Positions 1 through 7,232 of a DNA stretch of 10,027 nt are shown here, piece by piece; within the stretch, counting starts at the first letter, position 1; the number at the start of each line of letters is the position of its first letter. The DNA lies in IMG/VR virus record IMGVR_UViG_3300015186_000054; one strand, given 5' to 3'. The notes below the pieces were generated by a model, which saw nothing but the letters and a program-made list of their open reading frames with translations, was not told the DNA's origin and did no database searches. The stretch is from a virus (taxonomy: Duplodnaviria > Heunggongvirae > Uroviricota > Caudoviricetes). The position numbers and the translations under genes are program-made.

Positions 1-507
1 GTTTCCTTCTTTCTTATTAACAATTACACCGTCATATATTTCATTAAGGTGCCCTCTCAACTCCATGCGCCTTAATGCAGATAACATGTAATCGCATTCA
101 ACCTGCTTATTTCCAGTAAATGGCTTATCGTCAGGATTACCCCAACAGCAATTACCCTTGGGCCACCCATGTACTTTCCGTACTCTTCCGTTAACAACGT
201 GAAGTAATCCCCAGCCAGGTGGTAAATCCTCAATTGAAATAATTCCTGGCTCACTAATAAAGAATCGCCAGTCGCCCATTCCAAGAGACGGATTTTTACG
301 AAAACGCTTTTTTCTATCTGCCAACAAGTCAGCACGAGAACACTTCGCCTCTATCAGGCATGATGCTGAATTTCTGAATCCCATAGCATCTGGCTGTTCT
401 CCGGTACTGGTTACAGCTATAAAGCGGTCATGAAAACAAACCTTGAACCCGTTGCGCTTAAGGAACTTGTACGCAATCTGACAGAGTTCGCGGTGTGTTA
501 ACGCCAT
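1..507 (-). CDS. hypothetical phage protein, 3'-truncated by the window edge (at least 169 aa); possible PD-(D/E)xK nuclease-like fold
   Basis: Own translation of the minus strand from ATG at 507-505: MALTHRELCQIAYKFLKRNGFKVCFHDRFIAVTSTGEQPDAMGFRNSASCLIEAKCSRADLL..., open through base 1 with no stop, hence absent from the ORF track. SD AAGGAGAG about 6 nt upstream overlaps the stop of the upstream gene. A D...hhhEAK arrangement resembles a PD-(D/E)xK motif; this is weak inference. The track ORF 72..335 is in another frame and rejected. Confidence 0.55.
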   Translation of the reverse strand, partial: MALTHRELCQIAYKFLKRNGFKVCFHDRFIAVTSTGEQPDAMGFRNSASCLIEAKCSRADLLADRKKRFRKNPSLGMGDWRFFISEPGIISIEDLPPGWGLLHVVNGRVRKVHGWPKGNCCWGNPDDKPFTGNKQVECDYMLSALRRMELRGHLNEIYDGVIVNKKEGN

Positions 508-508
508 A

Positions 509-994
509 TCACTCTCCTTTGATGCGAATGCCTGTTGCAATGCTGTTTATGATGCTGTCAGTGCATGGGGTAGAAAGCTGGGCATCTCCAGCAATTTTCA
601 TGACCTCAACATCTGCATATCGAATACCGAGGTGTATCAGACCGGCTATACCTGACTTAAGCCGAGCATTTTCCATAAACAGATCCTTTGCCCGCTGTTT
701 TTCTGCCTCAAGCTCAACGCGCAGCCTCCCAACCGTAAGCGCAATCTCCTCGTTCTCCTGGTCGCGGCGTTTGATGTATTGCTGGTTTCTTTCCCGTTCA
801 TCCAGCAGCGCCAGCACGGTTTCTGGTCCGGTCAGAAATTTGAAGGCGTTGAGCGCATCAATATCCACACCGTAATCTTTAAGTTCCTGTTCACTTAACA
901 AATCATCATCAACTGGCAACATTAACAGGCGTTCCATTGCTGGAGTTGCACGTTCTGCCGCCTCACGCAGTGCCTGGTAATTAATTTTGCTCAC
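509..994 (-). CDS. hypothetical phage protein (161 aa, charged/coiled-coil-like central region)
   Basis: ORF track 509..994. GTG start at 994-992 preceded by a strong SD (AAGGAGG, about 7 nt spacing). Stop TGA lies 1 nt before the ATG of the next minus-strand gene. No family recognised from sequence. Confidence 0.6.
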   Translation of the reverse strand: MSKINYQALREAAERATPAMERLLMLPVDDDLLSEQELKDYGVDIDALNAFKFLTGPETVLALLDERERNQQYIKRRDQENEEIALTVGRLRVELEAEKQRAKDLFMENARLKSGIAGLIHLGIRYADVEVMKIAGDAQLSTPCTDSIINSIATGIRIKGE

Positions 995-1283
995 TGACTG
1001 CCTCCTTCTTAATCAGTTTACACAGGTGCTCCACAGCCACAGAGAGTGCATCCACCGCTCGTTTATCCAGACGCGGGGCCAGAGCAAGCAGTTCATTTAT
1101 TGCAATCTGAATACCATGCTCCGCCGCCAGCGCATTAGCACGCACCAGTTGCACTTCCAGTTGCGTTGCCAAATCGCTGATCAGCTTTGCCACACTGCGC
1201 ATATCAACGGCACCACATTCTGCTTTCAGTTCCGAAGCCATCTCATGCCCGGCGGCAACTAACCCTTTGATATTACTTTCCAT
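981..1283 (-). CDS. hypothetical phage protein (100 aa, Ala/Leu-rich helical)
   Basis: ORF track 981..1283. ATG at 1283-1281 with SD GAGGG 5 nt upstream. Overlaps the start of the downstream gene by 14 nt (coupled). No family recognised. Confidence 0.55.
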   Translation of the reverse strand: MESNIKGLVAAGHEMASELKAECGAVDMRSVAKLISDLATQLEVQLVRANALAAEHGIQIAINELLALAPRLDKRAVDALSVAVEHLCKLIKKEAVSEQN

Positions 1284-1689: not shown

Positions 1690-1692
1690 GAT

Positions 1693-1707
1693 TTACCCCT
1701 GAGGTAA
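1693..1707. promoter_or_regulatory. operator-like dyad TTACC-CCTGA-GGTAA overlapping the -10/+1 region and the SD of the DUF1064 gene
   Basis: Perfect 5+5 inverted repeat read directly from the sequence. Confidence 0.55.
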
Positions 1708-1738
1708 TTAAAAACCACATAAGACACGAAATCAATAG
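1707..1738 (-). promoter_or_regulatory. putative sigma70 promoter for the DUF1064 operon, paralogous to the early-left promoter
   Basis: Minus-strand reading: -35 TTGATT (plus coordinates 1735-1730), 17-bp spacer, -10 TTTAAT (1712-1707). It shares the heptamer CTATTGA at the -35 with the promoter at 4785-4791 and has identical operator geometry. Confidence 0.4.
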
Positions 1739-1753
1739 ATTTTAGAATATTTT

Positions 1754-1770
1754 ATTACCTAACGGGTAAT
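1754..1770. promoter_or_regulatory. operator-like dyad ATTACC-TAACG-GGTAAT
   Basis: Perfect 6+6 inverted repeat, identical over 18 nt to the site at 4753-4770, 19 bp upstream of the putative -35. Confidence 0.55.
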
Positions 1771-3578: not shown

Positions 3579-3656
3579 TTTTTCCGCCCCTTTTTGTTAT
3601 TGATATTGGCTATTTTGCACAATTGGAAAATTTGATCAACCAGATTTGGTTTTTTA

Positions 3657-3671
3657 TTACCTTTGAGGTAC
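3657..3671. promoter_or_regulatory. operator-like dyad TTACC-TTTGA-GGTAC (one mismatch) just downstream of the tR1-like terminator
   Basis: Dyad read from the sequence. On the minus strand it is followed after about 16 nt by TTGATC, a possible -35. Confidence 0.4.
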
Positions 3672-3679
3672 GAATAGAT

Positions 3680-3705
3680 ATGAAAAGACCGCCGGGTGGC
3701 GGTCT
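3680..3705 (-). terminator. putative intrinsic terminator after the Cro-like gene (tR1-like position)
   Basis: Minus-strand reading AGACCGCC-ACCC-GGCGGTCT then TTTCA: 7-8 bp GC-rich stem, 4-nt loop, short U-tract, 23 nt after the Cro-like stop. Confidence 0.5.
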
Positions 3706-3726: not shown

Positions 3727-3957
3727 TCATGAGTAGAAGAAGTATGCCAGTTCTGCTTTTGAGCGCAGCCATTGTCTTGTTTTACAGGCTTTAAAAAGCC
3801 CATTCATCAATACTTTACCTGGCATTTTGCGCTTACCTGTTAAGTGAGTCTGGATATAGTGACTCGTCGTTCCGGCTTCCTGTGCGAAGGCTTCACGCTC
3901 ATCCGGAGTAAGTGCAAGCCAGTGCTTTTTGAAATCGAAATGTCCGTTATCGCTCAT
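3727..3957 (-). CDS. Cro/YdaS-like HTH transcriptional regulator
   Basis: 76-aa ORF divergent from the repressor gene. LALTPDEREAFAQEAGTTSHYIQTHLTGKRKMP has the look of a Cro/CII/YdaS-type helix-turn-helix. It is the first gene of the minus-strand early operon and is followed 23 nt after its stop by a hairpin plus U-tract. Confidence 0.65.
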   Translation of the reverse strand: MSDNGHFDFKKHWLALTPDEREAFAQEAGTTSHYIQTHLTGKRKMPGKVLMNGLFKACKTRQWLRSKAELAYFFYS

Positions 3958-3993
3958 AGCTATTGCCTGATATTTATTTCAGATAATAAATAT

Positions 3994-4056
3994 TCACCCA
4001 TAAGGTAACAAAAATCAAGGATAGTTACCCATGAGGTGCATTTACCTGTTGGGTAA
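3994..4056. promoter_or_regulatory. operator triad in the divergent repressor/Cro-like intergenic region (OR analogue), with PR-like and PRM-like promoters
   Basis: Three dyads: 3994-4008 TCACC-CATAA-GGTAA (one mismatch), 4025-4039 TTACC-CATGA-GGTGC (two mismatches), 4042-4056 TTACC-TGTTG-GGTAA (perfect). On the minus strand a -35 TTGATT (4018-4013) places the first dyad inside the promoter spacer of the Cro-like gene. Confidence 0.55.
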
Positions 4057-4111
4057 TATTGCTTTAAATTGAATCATCTTCTGATTCAGATATGAGGCGA
4101 TTTTCCAGAAA

Positions 4112-4696
4112 ATGAAAAGTATCCAGGACGTCCGCAGGCAAAATCTCAACGACTTGATCGACCGTGAATTCAATGGTGTTCAGACGCGGATGGCTGAAAA
4201 ACTTGGAACTCAGGCAAATCTGGTAAACCGCTGGGCTCTTGGCAAGAAGGTTATCGGCGACCAGGTTGCACGAAAAATTGAAGCTGCCGCCAATAAACCC
4301 CGTAACTGGCTTGATATCGATCGCTCGCTTTCTCAGGAAGGTTTTCAGCCTGTCGGCCCAAGCGACATTGGCCAGCTGGCGGCTCACAACCTGGAACGCT
4401 GGATGAGCGAAAGCCGCGACCTTTCAACACAGGGAAAACTTCACCGCGCATCCGGCGTAGCCCAGGTGACAATCAGCCGCCTGTTAAACAATGAGGTCAG
4501 CGTTTCCATTTCCACCCTGGAGAATGTTGCATCCGCATTCGGGCGTCACGGCTATGAATTACTGATTCACCCGCACGACCCTGCGACCATCAACTATGAT
4601 CGCTCGCGCTACGCATTGTTACCCGAAACCGAGAAAGCAAAGATCGAAAGTTACATTGAATTTGTCATCAACCAGAACGAAAAAAACAAACAATAA
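4112..4696 (+). CDS. prophage repressor (CI analogue) with two XRE-type HTH domains and no LexA/S24 peptidase domain
   Basis: 194-aa ORF. N-terminal HTH (GVQTRMAEKLGTQANLVNRWALGKKVIGDQVARKIEAAANKPRNWLD) and a second HTH-like segment (LHRASGVAQVTISRLLNNEVSVSISTLENVASAFG). No Ser/Lys autoprotease motifs. Divergent from the Cro-like gene, weak or no SD, followed by a strong intrinsic terminator. Confidence 0.7.
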   Translation: MKSIQDVRRQNLNDLIDREFNGVQTRMAEKLGTQANLVNRWALGKKVIGDQVARKIEAAANKPRNWLDIDRSLSQEGFQPVGPSDIGQLAAHNLERWMSESRDLSTQGKLHRASGVAQVTISRLLNNEVSVSISTLENVASAFGRHGYELLIHPHDPATINYDRSRYALLPETEKAKIESYIEFVINQNEKNKQ

Positions 4697-4752: not shown

Positions 4753-4769
4753 ATTACCTAACGGGTAAT
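4753..4769. promoter_or_regulatory. operator-like dyad ATTACC-TAACG-GGTAAT upstream of the early-left promoter
   Basis: Perfect dyad, 19 bp upstream of TTGACA. Confidence 0.55.
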
Positions 4770-4784
4770 TTTTTTAACTCATAT

Positions 4785-4816
4785 CTATTGACATCAAACC
4801 ATATACGCATAATTAT
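4785..4816 (+). promoter_or_regulatory. putative sigma70 early-left promoter (pL analogue)
   Basis: -35 TTGACA at 4788-4793 (perfect consensus), 17-bp spacer, -10 AATTAT at 4811-4816. Flanked by operator dyads 19 bp upstream of the -35 and overlapping the -10. Confidence 0.55.
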
Positions 4817-4831
4817 TACCTCAACGGTAAC
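4815..4831. promoter_or_regulatory. operator-like dyad ATTACC-TCAAC-GGTAAC overlapping the -10/+1 of the early-left promoter
   Basis: Perfect TTACC-N5-GGTAA core; its centre is 62 bp from the centre of the upstream dyad. Confidence 0.55.
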
Positions 4832-5004: not shown

Positions 5005-5304
5005 ATGAACGTTAATCAGCAGAAAAATCTTCAAAAAATCATGCTGGCATTCGATAAGGACTACCGCCTGTCAGAACAGCTATATGACCGACAAGTTGAA
5101 CTGATTGAGAGCATCCGACTTCATCAACTGTCCTCAACTTTCGACGTTGTAACAGGCAAAGGCGTTCGTCAGGAAGTACTGGAGGCTGCTAAAGACAGCC
5201 CTGAGTTCGAAGAACTGATGGATGCCTACCGTCGCGAGGCAATGGCAATTATCGCCCGCTGGGATCTGGCTGATCAGATTGATGGGCAGAGGGACGCGGC
5301 ATGA
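5005..5304 (+). CDS. hypothetical phage protein (99 aa)
   Basis: Track ORF 4990..5304. I prefer ATG 5005 (MNVNQQKNLQ...) because SD GGAGG lies 7 nt upstream. Its stop overlaps the ATG of the exonuclease gene (ATGA). No family recognised. Confidence 0.55.
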   Translation: MNVNQQKNLQKIMLAFDKDYRLSEQLYDRQVELIESIRLHQLSSTFDVVTGKGVRQEVLEAAKDSPEFEELMDAYRREAMAIIARWDLADQIDGQRDAA

Positions 5305-6200
5305 TGCGGAACGCTGGAATCATGGATAGAACAAAATACATCGGAGGAAGCGATGTTGCAGGGATTCTTGGAATTAGCCCATGGCGCACCCCGCTTGAGG
5401 TTTATCTGGATAAGGTCCAGCCACGTGTCAAACCAGTAGACCCAAGCAAGCAGAAAGTTTTCACGCGTGGCCAGCGTATGGAGCCATACGTAATAGACCT
5501 GCTTTCTGAGGAAACAGGGATGGAAATCGTTCATCGCGGAAACCGCTATATCCACCGTGATTACGATTTTATTGCAGCTGAGATCGATGCAGAAGCAGCG
5601 TCAGGCGAGAACATTGAGATCAAAACAGTTAGTCCGTTCAAAGCCAAAGAATGGGGAGAAATCCAGACAGATGCAATTCCTGTGCATTACACGGCCCAGG
5701 CCATGCACGGGTTGATGGTTACAAACAAACAGGTATGCGTTTTCGGTGTGCTTATCGGTGGCGACGACTTCCGAATCTATCGGGTTGAGCGTGATGAAGA
5801 AACTATCCAGGCGATCTTAGAAAAAGAAATCGCTTTCTGGGACCGAGTGAAAAATCTTAACCCGCCGGAAGCTACCAGCGTAAGCGATGTATCGCTGATG
5901 TTTGAGAAAGATGCCGGGACAAGTATCGAGGCTGACGGAAAGGCACTCGCACTATTCAACGATCTACGAGACATGAAGTCACGCAGAAAATCACTGGAAG
6001 AAGAAATAGCTATATCAGAAGAGAAGCTGAAGATGTACATGCAAGAGCACTCAGTCCTGACCCTGGACGGAAAGCCGCTCTGCACATGGAAATCTCAGAT
6101 CAGCAACAGATTCGACCAGAAGCTATTCCAGTCAGTACACCCTGAGTTATTCGAAAAATTCAAAACAACAACGACACAACGCGTCTTCAGAATGAAGTAA
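5301..6200 (+). CDS. YqaJ/lambda-Exo-type phage exonuclease (recombination partner of RecT)
   Basis: 299-aa ORF. N-terminal KYIGGSDVAGILGISPWRTPLEVYL is the characteristic YqaJ viral-recombinase-domain signature. Immediately upstream of a RecT gene. SD AGAGGGA upstream. Confidence 0.85.
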   Translation: MMRNAGIMDRTKYIGGSDVAGILGISPWRTPLEVYLDKVQPRVKPVDPSKQKVFTRGQRMEPYVIDLLSEETGMEIVHRGNRYIHRDYDFIAAEIDAEAASGENIEIKTVSPFKAKEWGEIQTDAIPVHYTAQAMHGLMVTNKQVCVFGVLIGGDDFRIYRVERDEETIQAILEKEIAFWDRVKNLNPPEATSVSDVSLMFEKDAGTSIEADGKALALFNDLRDMKSRRKSLEEEIAISEEKLKMYMQEHSVLTLDGKPLCTWKSQISNRFDQKLFQSVHPELFEKFKTTTTQRVFRMK

Positions 6201-6209
6201 GGAGAAAAA

Positions 6210-7232
6210 ATGTCTATCAATGCACTTAAGGCAGCGGCTACCGGTAACCAAGTTGCACATCATAATGAGAAACCAACAACTCTGGCCGGACTTCTGGCAG
6301 ACCCAAAAATTAAAGCTCAGATGGCTTTGGCACTTCCAAAGCACATGACAGCAGACCGTCTGGCGCGCATAGCAACCACAGAGATCCGAAAGGTTCCAAA
6401 ACTTGCATCATGCGACCAAGCCAGCTTCCTGGGGGCAATTATGCAATGTGCCCAATTGGGTCTTGAACCAGGCGGAGCTCTTGGACACGCTTACCTGATA
6501 CCGTTCGACAAACGCCAGAAAGTAAATGGAAGATGGGAAACCGTATCTACAGAAGCACAGCTGATTATCGGCTATCGCGGAATGATTGACCTTGCCCGCC
6601 GCTCTGGGCAGATCCTGAGTATCTCGGCTCGTACCGTACATACAAACGACAAATTCAGCTACTCATACGGCCTGGAAGAAACGCTCGAGCATTTACCTTG
6701 CGAAACAGGTGACCGCGGAGAATTAACGCACGTTTACGCCGTTGCACGACTGAAAGATGGCGGAGTCCAATTTGAAGTTATGAGCCGGGCAGACGTTGAG
6801 AAAGTTCGTGCACTGAGCAAAGCCGGTAGCAGTGGCCCATGGGTTGATCACTTCGATGAGATGGCTAAAAAAACAGTAATTCGCCGACTGTTCAAATATC
6901 TTCCTGTTTCTATTGAAATGCAGAAGGCTGTTGTTATGGATGAGCGCGCTGAAGCTGGACTTAGCCAAGATAACGCAGCTGTTATCACTGGTGAATATTC
7001 CGTAGTTGACGATGAGCGTCAACACCTATCGCCAATTTCAGATTCAGAACGAGAAGAAGCTCGAGAATATATCATCGCGATACTTAATAGCCTGGATCCA
7101 TCTGCTGAAGATGCAAAAACGATGTTCAAGCGCGCTGAAAATGAAATTAACACCATGGCTGACAAGCTCGGTGATGAATATCACCAAAAATTCATGATGA
7201 CGCTTAACGATATGCGTCCAGAATTCGAGTAA
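6210..7232 (+). CDS. recT: RecT-family single-strand annealing recombinase
   Basis: 340-aa ORF. GHAYLIPFDKRQKVNGRWETVSTEAQLIIGYRGMIDLARRSGQI matches the RecT/Red-beta core as recalled. SD AAGGAG 6 nt upstream of ATG 6210. Confidence 0.9.
   Translation: MSINALKAAATGNQVAHHNEKPTTLAGLLADPKIKAQMALALPKHMTADRLARIATTEIRKVPKLASCDQASFLGAIMQCAQLGLEPGGALGHAYLIPFDKRQKVNGRWETVSTEAQLIIGYRGMIDLARRSGQILSISARTVHTNDKFSYSYGLEETLEHLPCETGDRGELTHVYAVARLKDGGVQFEVMSRADVEKVRALSKAGSSGPWVDHFDEMAKKTVIRRLFKYLPVSIEMQKAVVMDERAEAGLSQDNAAVITGEYSVVDDERQHLSPISDSEREEAREYIIAILNSLDPSAEDAKTMFKRAENEINTMADKLGDEYHQKFMMTLNDMRPEFE

What the first reader, a model, noticed from the sequence alone, without database searches (positions are those of the whole stretch)
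4112..4696. Repressor with tandem HTH domains and no autocleavage domain, implying SOS-independent or antirepressor-mediated induction
The CI-positioned protein has two XRE-like helix-turn-helix segments and lacks the Ala-Gly / Ser-Lys S24 peptidase module of LexA-like repressors. Induction would then need an antirepressor or another signal, which is not encoded in this window. A tandem-HTH monomer could bind the two half-sites of the 15-bp dyad on its own.
Basis: partly seen in the sequence, partly recalled or inferred. Interest (0 to 1): 0.5.

Follow-up and report, generated by a model that had tools for sequence, protein, structure and literature searches.

The report
Known epsilon15-type phage repressor (Rep)
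This gene encodes the already characterised lysogeny repressor of phiV10/epsilon15-type phages, which cannot cut itself and is instead switched off during DNA damage by a small LexA-controlled antirepressor encoded elsewhere in the prophage, so it is an ordinary member of a solved system.

Summary
ORF 4112-4696 (+) encodes a 194-aa all-helical protein with two HTH-like segments, no S24 peptidase domain and no Ala-Gly or Cys-Gly site. It sits in the CI position of an epsilon15-like (Uetakevirus) prophage.

It is not new. The protein is 100% identical to phiV10 gp40 and to ORF21 of phage vB_EcoP_ZX5, which has been tested by overexpression. It is a full-length homologue (42% identity, E 4e-42) of Salmonella phage SPC32H Rep, whose structures are PDB 5D4Z and 5D50.

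In that system, published work describes three modules:
- The N-terminal HTH is the DNA reader.
- The second HTH-like segment is a dimerisation domain.
- The C-terminal strand plus helix tetramerises and binds the antirepressor Ant.

Rep acts as a tetramer. ant is repressed by LexA, so induction is SOS-dependent but does not involve cleavage of Rep.

The window has no ant. All but two of the 37 related phage records carry one (88% identical to SPC32H Ant), with a conserved LexA box and Rep operator upstream.

The operator ATTACC-N5-GGTAAT (17 bp, not 15) occurs 7 times in the window against 0.27 expected.

"SOS-independent" and "a monomer binds both half-sites" are not supported. Interest is low.

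The parts
4112..4696 (+). rep: lysogeny repressor, 194 aa. Modules: N-terminal HTH DNA-binding domain (aa 1-72), flexible linker (73-88), HTH_3-like middle dimerisation domain (about 89-151), C-terminal tetramerisation/Ant-binding module (about 152-194).
   Evidence: 100% identical to phiV10 gp40 and ZX5 ORF21. Matches PDB 5d50_A over aa 1-190 at E 4e-42. Pfam HTH_3. AF2 model and Foldseek top hits 5d50/5d4z. Module names come from PMC9986798.
4717..4736 (+). Intrinsic terminator ending the rep transcript
   Evidence: 8-bp stem with 6 GC pairs followed by a T-run. Annotated as a terminator at the same place in phiV10.
4753..4769 (.). Rep operator, perfect dyad ATTACCTAACGGGTAAT, upstream of the PL-like promoter
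   Evidence: 0 mismatches. The equivalent sites in epsilon15 are annotated as repressor binding sites.
4788..4816 (+). PL-like early promoter (TTGACA-17-AATTAT) for gp39/gp38/exo/recT, bracketed by two operators 62 bp apart
   Evidence: 10 of 12 consensus matches. This is a consensus match only; no function was tested.
4815..4831 (.). Rep operator ATTACCTCAACGGTAAC, overlapping the -10 hexamer and start region of the PL-like promoter
   Evidence: 1 mismatch.
4041..4057 (.). Rep operator TTTACCTGTTGGGTAAT in the rep/cro-like intergenic region
   Evidence: 1 mismatch. The position corresponds to the PR-side triplet in epsilon15 and SPC32H.
4024..4040 (.). Degenerate operator-like site GTTACCCATGAGGTGCA, directly abutting the site at 4041-4057
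   Evidence: Read from the sequence; 4 mismatches. It is included only because the 17-bp spacing matches the abutting operator pairs of epsilon15 and SPC32H. Weak evidence.
3993..4009 (.). Weak operator TTCACCCATAAGGTAAC, lying inside the spacer of a promoter-like site on the - strand (PR-like, for the cro-like gene)
   Evidence: 3 mismatches. The - strand promoter-like site spans 4011..3983. Its spacing of 31 bp to the next site compares with 30 bp in epsilon15 and SPC32H.
3727..3957 (-). Divergent 76-aa cro-position gene (phiV10 gp41 / epsilon15 gp39 homologue), a likely HTH regulator
   Evidence: PHROG 35 'transcriptional repressor', E 5.6e-13. phiV10 annotation.
3656..3672 (.). Operator-like site ATTACCTTTGAGGTACG, just after the - strand terminator (3705..3686)
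   Evidence: 2 mismatches. Conserved in phiV10 and in the E. coli HCP4S3_I4 prophage.
1754..1770 (.). Rep operator, perfect dyad, between the replication-P gene and the DUF1064 gene
   Evidence: 0 mismatches. The equivalent epsilon15 site is annotated as a repressor binding site.
1692..1708 (.). Rep operator TTTACCCCTGAGGTAAT, 62 bp from the site at 1754
   Evidence: 1 mismatch. The same 62-bp pairing is seen in SPC32H and epsilon15.

Best explanation
The ORF is the Rep-type lysogeny repressor of an epsilon15/phiV10-like (Uetakevirus) prophage integrated at guaA.

Inferred mechanism, by homology to SPC32H Rep:
1. The basic N-terminal HTH domain reads the half-site ATTACC of the 17-bp dyad ATTACC-N5-GGTAAT.
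2. The second HTH_3-like segment is a dimerisation domain.
3. The C-terminal strand plus helix drives tetramerisation and is the docking site for the antirepressor.
4. Rep tetramers occupy operators at each early promoter: PL-like, PR-like, the replication/nin junction, and the ant promoter.
5. Rep has no S24 peptidase and is not cleaved. DNA damage inactivates host LexA, which derepresses the small gene ant (85-86 aa, next to the tailspike gene and about 22 kb outside this window in the closest prophage). Ant then binds Rep and splits the tetramer into dimers that bind DNA poorly.

Shown here:
- Identity of the protein with phiV10 gp40 and ZX5 ORF21, and homology to SPC32H Rep.
- Domain layout and absence of an S24 domain.
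- Enrichment and placement of the operators.
- Presence of ant, with a LexA box and a Rep operator upstream, in relatives.

Inferred, not shown:
- Physical binding of this Rep by its Ant.
- Tetramer formation by this protein.
- Presence of ant in the genome this window came from.
For: Identity and homology:
- 100% identity to phiV10 gp40 and ZX5 ORF21.
- Overexpressing ZX5 ORF21 abolished free phage and cut endolysin and holin mRNA by more than 99.9%.
- Full-length match to SPC32H Rep, 5d50_A, E 4e-42. Foldseek top hits are 5d50/5d4z, with TM 0.81 on the C-terminal half.

Published mechanism of the homologue:
- Module roles DBD/MDD/CAD, and Ant binding to CAD.
- Tetramer binding of DNA, and splitting of the tetramer by Ant.

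No autocleavage module:
- No S24 hit, no AG or CG dipeptide, and an all-helical model.

Operators:
- 7 matches in the window against 0.27 expected, with 0 of 200 shuffles reaching 7.
- The same consensus occurs in epsilon15 (annotated as repressor sites), SPC32H and phiV10.
- The NTD recognition-helix residues N36, R40 and W41 are invariant across the family.

Ant:
- 35 phage records carry Ant, against 37 that carry Rep.
- The closest complete prophage (98.3% identical to the window) has ant preceded by the perfect operator ATTACCTTTCAGGTAAT and the LexA box TACTGTATAAACATACAGT.
- Both elements are conserved in the alignment of 8 phages.

Induction:
- phiV10-species prophages are induced by a DNA-damaging microcin.
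Against: - The Rep/Ant interaction has been shown only for SPC32H, whose Rep is 42% identical to this one (DBD 53%, MDD 33%, CAD 49%). No direct test exists for the phiV10-type pair.
- The window's own genome could not be found, so its ant was not seen.
- The primary SPC32H papers (PMC3807360, PMC4983836) were not readable here. Mechanistic details rest on secondary accounts and on my own recollection of the abstracts.
- The ZX5 study attributed antirepression to a different, Bro-N-type protein.
Confidence: 0.85

Rival explanations
1. One reading: one Rep monomer uses its two HTH domains as two reading heads, one for each half-site of the dyad.
For: Two HTH-like segments joined by a flexible linker do exist.
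Against: - The half-sites are identical and inverted, which calls for two copies of the same reading head. The two segments share no detectable similarity.
- Only the NTD is basic: +5, pI 10.3, against -1, pI 6.6 for the C-terminal part.
- The homologous second segment of SPC32H Rep is a dimerisation domain. Rep binds DNA as a tetramer through its N-terminal domains.
- The C-terminal half of the SPC32H homologue (107-residue construct, PDB 5d4z) was crystallised on its own; the tetramer assignment comes from secondary accounts.
Confidence: 0.03
2. Induction is truly independent of SOS, for example through quorum or metabolic signals or only spontaneous induction.
For: Rep has no cleavage module. 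ZX5 lysogens release about 10^7 PFU/mL spontaneously (abstract).
Against: - A LexA box (CTGT-N8-ACAG) lies upstream of ant in 7 of the 8 aligned phages, including phiV10, ZX5 and the closest prophage; the Klebsiella phage has a one-mismatch version.
- phiV10-species prophages are induced 21- to 47-fold by a DNA-damaging microcin.
- SPC32H Ant is described as one of the LexA-regulated antirepressors (plus my recollection of Kim & Ryu 2013).
Confidence: 0.05
3. In E. coli members the effective antirepressor is the larger Bro-N-type protein (ZX5 ORF4, phiV10 gp23) encoded just downstream of the small ant. The small Ant is either accessory, or both act together.
For: - Overexpressing ZX5 ORF4 lowered the prophage titre from 10^9 to 10^6 and cut rep mRNA by 75%.
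- The gene lies downstream of ant, on the same strand, in phiV10, ZX5 and Tyrion.
Against: - The Bro-N gene is absent from SPC32H and from the prophage closest to the window. The small Ant is present in 35 of the 37 Rep-carrying records.
- The overexpression data do not show that ORF4 binds Rep.
- A putative terminator separates ant from the Bro-N gene in phiV10.
Confidence: 0.1

Closest known systems
Salmonella phage SPC32H Rep/Ant switch (Kim & Ryu 2013, J Virol 87:11775; Kim et al. 2016, PNAS 113:E2480; PDB 5D4Z, 5D50)
   Same: - Full-length homology (E 4e-42, 42% identity).
- Same three-module layout and same genomic position.
- Same operator consensus, ATTACC-N5-GGTAAT.
- Same genus (Uetakevirus).
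- Relatives carry an 88%-identical Ant with the same LexA box plus Rep operator upstream.
   Different: - The Rep sequence has diverged (DBD 53%, MDD 33%, CAD 49% identity; the linker is 6 residues shorter).
- The operator spacers are not A/T-rich.
- The Rep-Ant interaction has not been tested for this variant.
phiV10 gp40, vB_EcoP_ZX5 ORF21 and epsilon15 gp38 repressors
   Same: 100% identical to phiV10 gp40 and ZX5 ORF21. The phiV10 record already notes 'two helix-turn-helix motifs'. ZX5 ORF21 was shown to repress lytic genes when overexpressed.
   Different: Nothing in the protein itself. The surrounding prophage is a mosaic relative, about 98% identical, with separate exo and recT genes as in epsilon15.
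Other non-cleavable repressors inactivated by LexA-controlled antirepressors: coliphage 186 CI/Tum, Gifsy GfoR/GfoA, N15/phi80 AntC (own knowledge; 186 Tum is listed in the references shown)
   Same: Same logic: a stable repressor, with the SOS signal relayed through a LexA-repressed antirepressor gene.
   Different: The repressor and antirepressor folds are unrelated. Ant acts by breaking the Rep tetramer apart rather than by blocking the DNA-binding surface.
Lambda CI, P22 C2 and LexA (S24 autocleaving repressors)
   Same: An N-terminal HTH DNA-binding domain, the CI position in the genome, and dyad operators flanking PL and PR.
   Different: No S24 peptidase domain, no Ala-Gly site, and an all-helical C-terminal part. 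It is not a member of this family.
Rco of plasmid pLS20 and the p53 tetramerisation domain (TetDloop)
   Same: An N-terminal HTH DBD plus a C-terminal strand-helix tetramerisation module, with regulation by an antirepressor-like partner, as proposed for SPC32H Rep in PMC9986798.
   Different: Rep has an extra middle dimerisation domain. In the monomer model made here the strand region (157-163) has low confidence, so this fold was not confirmed for the window protein.

Membership tests
SPC32H/epsilon15-type Rep (Uetakevirus lysogeny repressor) | Full-length sequence homology to SPC32H Rep | tested here: met
   phmmer against PDB: 5d50_A, E 4e-42, aa 1-190 aligned to 2-197. tblastn: 42% identity over 98% of the query to epsilon15 and SPC32H-like phages.
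SPC32H/epsilon15-type Rep (Uetakevirus lysogeny repressor) | Layout of DBD, then linker, then middle HTH-like dimerisation domain, then C-terminal strand-helix module | tested here: met
   AF2 model: helical domains 1-72 and 86-151, disordered 73-84, helix 172-193. Foldseek TM 0.81 to 5d4z. Caveat: the strand at 157-163 has low confidence in a monomer model.
SPC32H/epsilon15-type Rep (Uetakevirus lysogeny repressor) | Cognate operator ATTACC-N5-GGTAAT at the early promoters | tested here: met
   7 sites with up to 2 mismatches against 0.27 expected. Same consensus and spacing as in epsilon15 and SPC32H.
SPC32H/epsilon15-type Rep (Uetakevirus lysogeny repressor) | Partner Ant gene under a LexA box in the same phage | tested here: inconclusive
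   Absent from the 10-kb window, and the source genome was not found. Present, with a LexA box and a Rep operator, in phiV10, ZX5 and the closest prophage; 35 phage records carry Ant against 37 carrying Rep.
SPC32H/epsilon15-type Rep (Uetakevirus lysogeny repressor) | Tetramer formation and dissociation of the tetramer by Ant binding | not testable with these tools
   Needs biochemistry or a multimer model. Known only for SPC32H.
LexA/lambda-CI type autocleaving repressors (peptidase S24) | C-terminal S24 peptidase domain with a Ser-Lys dyad | tested here: not met
   No S24 hit in Pfam or NCBIfam at E<=10. The model has no beta-strands.
LexA/lambda-CI type autocleaving repressors (peptidase S24) | Ala-Gly (or Cys-Gly) cleavage site in the linker | tested here: not met
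   No AG or CG dipeptide in the 194 residues.
XRE / HTH_3 family DNA-binding domain (PF01381) | Pfam HTH_3 match above the gathering score | tested here: met
   38.5 bits against a cut-off of 23; 2 stretches, the best at 106-147.

The most novel reading that the evidence does not exclude
Ant has stayed 88% identical between the Salmonella and E. coli phages, while its target Rep has drifted to 42% identity (Ant-binding C-terminal module 49%). The operator half-sites are unchanged. Ant may therefore be a near-universal inducer that can cross-activate heterologous Uetakevirus prophages. The diverged Reps may also still recognise each other's operators, giving cross-immunity between genera. Neither possibility has been tested.
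Probability: 0.25. Interest if true: 0.35.

Novelty: already known. Interest (0 to 1): 0.1.

Why it matters
It matters little as a discovery. The protein, its two-HTH layout, its role as a repressor and the family's antirepressor mechanism are all already in databases, in solved structures and in the literature.

Its practical value is for annotation. RefSeq calls the protein only 'helix-turn-helix domain-containing protein', and calls its Ant partner 'hypothetical protein'. Both can be named.

These common E. coli prophages at guaA can be expected to be SOS-inducible through LexA and Ant rather than through repressor cleavage. This is relevant to prophage induction by antibiotics or colicins in gut E. 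coli.

Tried and rejected
- Reading the two primary SPC32H papers (PMC3807360, PMC4983836): neither is held. I used secondary descriptions instead.
- Locating the window's own genome so as to inspect its ant. An exact 104-mer scan of genome contigs found nothing. The same scan of viral contigs returned 76 loci, because that left-end module is widespread. None of them matched the window end to end (best about 98%). The best complete E. coli genome is 98.3% identical over 97% of the window.
- Looking for Ant or a LexA box inside the window. There was no significant tblastn hit, and only one-mismatch CTGT-N8-ACAG strings with no supporting context.
- Testing whether the two HTH segments are an internal duplication. 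BLASTP found no alignment, so this was rejected.
- A cryptic S24 domain: rejected.
- A Rep-Ant complex model could not be attempted, because the structure tool folds single chains only.

Full report
**What is there**

The window is the immunity and early region of a temperate podovirus of the epsilon15/phiV10 group (genus Uetakevirus), ending at its integrase.
- The 2.1 kb around the finding is 97-98% identical to phiV10, TL-2011b, vB_EcoP_ZX5 and related E. coli phages.
- The whole window is 98.3% identical over 97% of its length to a prophage inserted next to guaA in E. coli HCP4S3_I4. The ZX5 paper reports the same attachment site.
- Gene order on the + strand is rep (4112-4696), two small ORFs, exo, recT, an AlpA-like gene, a PerC-like gene, an adenine methylase and a DUF1382 gene. 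The integrase follows on the - strand.
- Diverging from rep on the - strand are a cro-position gene (3727-3957), a small ORF, a DnaT-like gene, a lambda-P-like replication gene, a DUF1064 gene and an Ead/Ea22-like gene.

**Check of the observation**

ORF 4112-4696 encodes 194 residues.
- Pfam HTH_3 matches above its curated threshold (38.5 bits against 23) with two stretches, the best at residues 106-147.
- The N-terminal part (21-61) gives sub-threshold hits to YdaS, DUF739 and HigA-type HTH models and clear hits to PHROG repressor families.
- An AlphaFold2 model built from 31 homologues (mean pLDDT 74) is entirely helical. It has two helical bundles (1-72 and 86-151), a disordered linker (73-84) and a long C-terminal helix (172-193).
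- No S24 peptidase match appears even at E<=10.
- There is no Ala-Gly or Cys-Gly dipeptide anywhere in the protein.
- The 86 homologues found in the large protein database are nearly all about 194 aa (a few are truncated fragments), and the precomputed Pfam domains listed for them are HTH-type only.

Two small corrections apply:
- The dyad ATTACC-N5-GGTAAT is 17 bp, not 15.
- The two HTH segments are not copies of each other. BLASTP finds no alignment between them at E<=100.

**It is a known protein**

- The translation is 100% identical to phiV10 gp40, whose GenBank note already says 'two helix-turn-helix motifs ... similar to putative repressor epsilon15p38'. It is also 100% identical to ORF21 of vB_EcoP_ZX5 and to about a dozen other E. 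coli phage records.
- In the ZX5 study, overexpressing ORF21 abolished free phage and lowered endolysin and holin transcripts by more than 99.9%.
- Against solved structures, the protein aligns over residues 1-190 with chain A of 5D50 (E 4e-42). Its C-terminal half aligns with 5D4Z (E 4e-20). Both entries are the repressor Rep of Salmonella phage SPC32H, and Foldseek labels 5D50 as the Rep-Ant complex.
- Foldseek with the model returns the same entries first, with TM 0.81 for the C-terminal half.
- Identity to SPC32H Rep is 53% in the N-terminal domain, 33% in the middle domain and 49% in the C-terminal module.

**How the family works**

This comes from the literature. The two primary papers were not readable here. 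I rely on secondary accounts and, where marked, on my own recollection.
- SPC32H Rep has an N-terminal DNA-binding domain, a middle dimerisation domain (MDD) and a C-terminal domain (CAD). The CAD tetramerises the protein and binds the antirepressor Ant. PMC9986798 likens the CAD to the p53 tetramerisation fold.
- Rep binds DNA as a tetramer, and dimers bind only weakly.
- The two DNA-binding domains that occupy one palindromic site are proposed to come from different dimers.
- Tetrameric Ant binds two Rep dimers and breaks the tetramer apart.
- Ant changes the conformation of Rep rather than occluding its DNA-binding surface.
- From my recollection of Kim & Ryu 2013: Rep is not cleaved during SOS; ant is repressed by LexA; and a single base change in the LexA box makes the sister phage SPC32N constitutively lytic.

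It is a dimerisation module, not a second DNA-reading head.

**Evidence in this window that the same mechanism applies**

1. Operators.
   - ATTACC-N5-GGTAAT occurs 7 times with up to 2 mismatches. The expectation is 0.27, and none of 200 shuffles reached 7.
   - Perfect or one-mismatch copies lie at 4753 and 4815, 4041, and 1692 and 1754.
   - The pair at 4753/4815 brackets a strong PL-like promoter, TTGACA-17-AATTAT, at 4788-4816.
   - The site at 4041 is on the PR side.
   - The pair at 1692/1754 lies between the replication genes and the DUF1064 gene.
   - The same consensus is annotated as the repressor binding site in the epsilon15 record, and it recurs in SPC32H and phiV10 with the same spacings: pairs 62 bp apart, and a PR-side triplet spaced about 30 and 17 bp.
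2. Reading head.
   - Recognition-helix residues N36, R40 and W41 of the N-terminal domain are invariant across the family, including SPC32H and epsilon15. This fits the unchanged half-site.
   - The N-terminal domain is basic (+5, pI 10.3). The C-terminal part is about neutral (-1, pI 6.6).
3. Antirepressor.
   - The window has no Ant homologue and no other antirepressor-like ORF.
   - SPC32H ant lies next to the tailspike gene.
   - tblastn finds an Ant homologue in 35 phage records. This is nearly the same set as the 37 that carry a Rep homologue. The E. coli phages' Ant is 87-88% identical to SPC32H Ant.
   - In phiV10, and in the prophage closest to the window, ant is preceded by a Rep operator and a LexA box. 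The operator in HCP4S3_I4 is ATTACCTTTCAGGTAAT, a perfect dyad. The LexA box there is TACTGTATAAACATACAGT, and in phiV10 TACTGTGTATTTATACAGT.
   - Both elements are conserved in an alignment of eight phages from Salmonella, Enterobacter, Klebsiella and E. coli. The Klebsiella LexA box has one mismatch, ATGT for CTGT.
4. Induction. A 2026 preprint reports that phiV10-species Uetakevirus prophages are induced 21- to 47-fold by a DNA-damaging microcin.

**Verdict on the interpretation**

- 'No autocleavage domain, so induction needs an antirepressor encoded outside the window' is right, and it is the published mechanism for this family.
- 'SOS-independent' is not supported. The SOS signal is relayed through LexA to ant, bypassing only the RecA-stimulated cleavage of the repressor.
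- 'A tandem-HTH monomer binds both half-sites' is not supported, for three reasons. Identical inverted half-sites imply two copies of the same domain. The two domains are dissimilar in sequence and in charge. In the homologue the second domain mediates dimerisation, and the DNA-bound form is a tetramer.

**Remaining uncertainty**

- No experiment has shown that the phiV10-type Rep binds its small Ant.
- The ZX5 authors tested a different gene instead. It is a Bro-N-type 'anti-repressor' lying just downstream of the small ant in ZX5, phiV10 and Tyrion. It is missing from SPC32H and from the prophage closest to the window. It may be an additional inducer or an alternative one.
- The exact source genome of the window was not found, so its ant locus is inferred from relatives about 98% identical.

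**Novelty and interest**

This is already known: an exact copy of a named and partly characterised phage repressor, in a family whose structure and induction mechanism were published in 2013-2016. Interest is low, about 0.1.

One mildly interesting loose end is the mismatch in conservation. Ant is 88% identical while Rep is 42% identical, and the operator half-sites are the same. That leaves open cross-induction or cross-immunity between Uetakeviruses of different host genera.

Noticed in passing
L006:14566-14823 (ant of E. coli HCP4S3_I4 prophage); L003:19676-19936 (SPC32H ant); window 4112-4696: Ant is much better conserved than the repressor it targets. Ant is 88% identical between the E. 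coli and Salmonella phages, while Rep is 42% identical (Ant-binding C-terminal module 49%). This hints that Ant could act across phage species.
   Followed up: partly
window 1692-1708, 1754-1770, 4753-4769, 4815-4831; L003 33603/33665 and 35971/36033: Operators come in pairs exactly 62 bp apart, centre to centre. The PR-side sites form a triplet spaced about 30 and 17 bp. This geometry is conserved in epsilon15, SPC32H, phiV10 and the window. It may reflect how one Rep tetramer, or several, bridge sites.
   Followed up: partly
window operators compared with L002/L003 operators: The half-sites ATTACC/GGTAAT are identical in the Salmonella and E. coli phages. The 5-bp spacer is A/T-rich in epsilon15 and SPC32H (AAAAT, TTTTG) but mixed in the window (TAACG, TCAAC, TGTTG). 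It is unclear what sets immunity specificity.
   Followed up: no
L004:2065-2649 (phiV10 gp23); L011:3071-3766 (ZX5 ORF4); L008:979 onward (Tyrion gp20): A second, Bro-N-type 'anti-repressor' gene sits just downstream of the small ant in phiV10, ZX5 and Tyrion. It is absent from SPC32H and from the HCP4S3_I4 prophage. The ZX5 paper tested only this gene and annotated the small Ant as hypothetical.
   Followed up: partly
window 5301-6200 and 6210-7232: The exonuclease (YqaJ-like) and RecT are separate genes here, as in epsilon15. The phiV10 record annotates a single fused 'recET' CDS at the same place.
   Followed up: no
window 1-1100: The left end is a mosaic module (Ead/Ea22-like gene and neighbours). 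An exact 104-mer from it occurs in 76 IMG/VR viral contigs, and many E. coli genomes match the window only from about position 700 onward.
   Followed up: partly
L006:9015-9995: The closest complete prophage (E. coli HCP4S3_I4) carries an IS5-like ISKpn26 transposase inserted between its lysis genes and an acyltransferase gene.
   Followed up: no
A3 alignment columns 58-68 (for example L006 about 14420-14430): An invariant TTCTATTACC half-site lies about 50 bp upstream of the ant operator in all eight phages. It has no obvious dyad partner, and its function is unknown.
   Followed up: no
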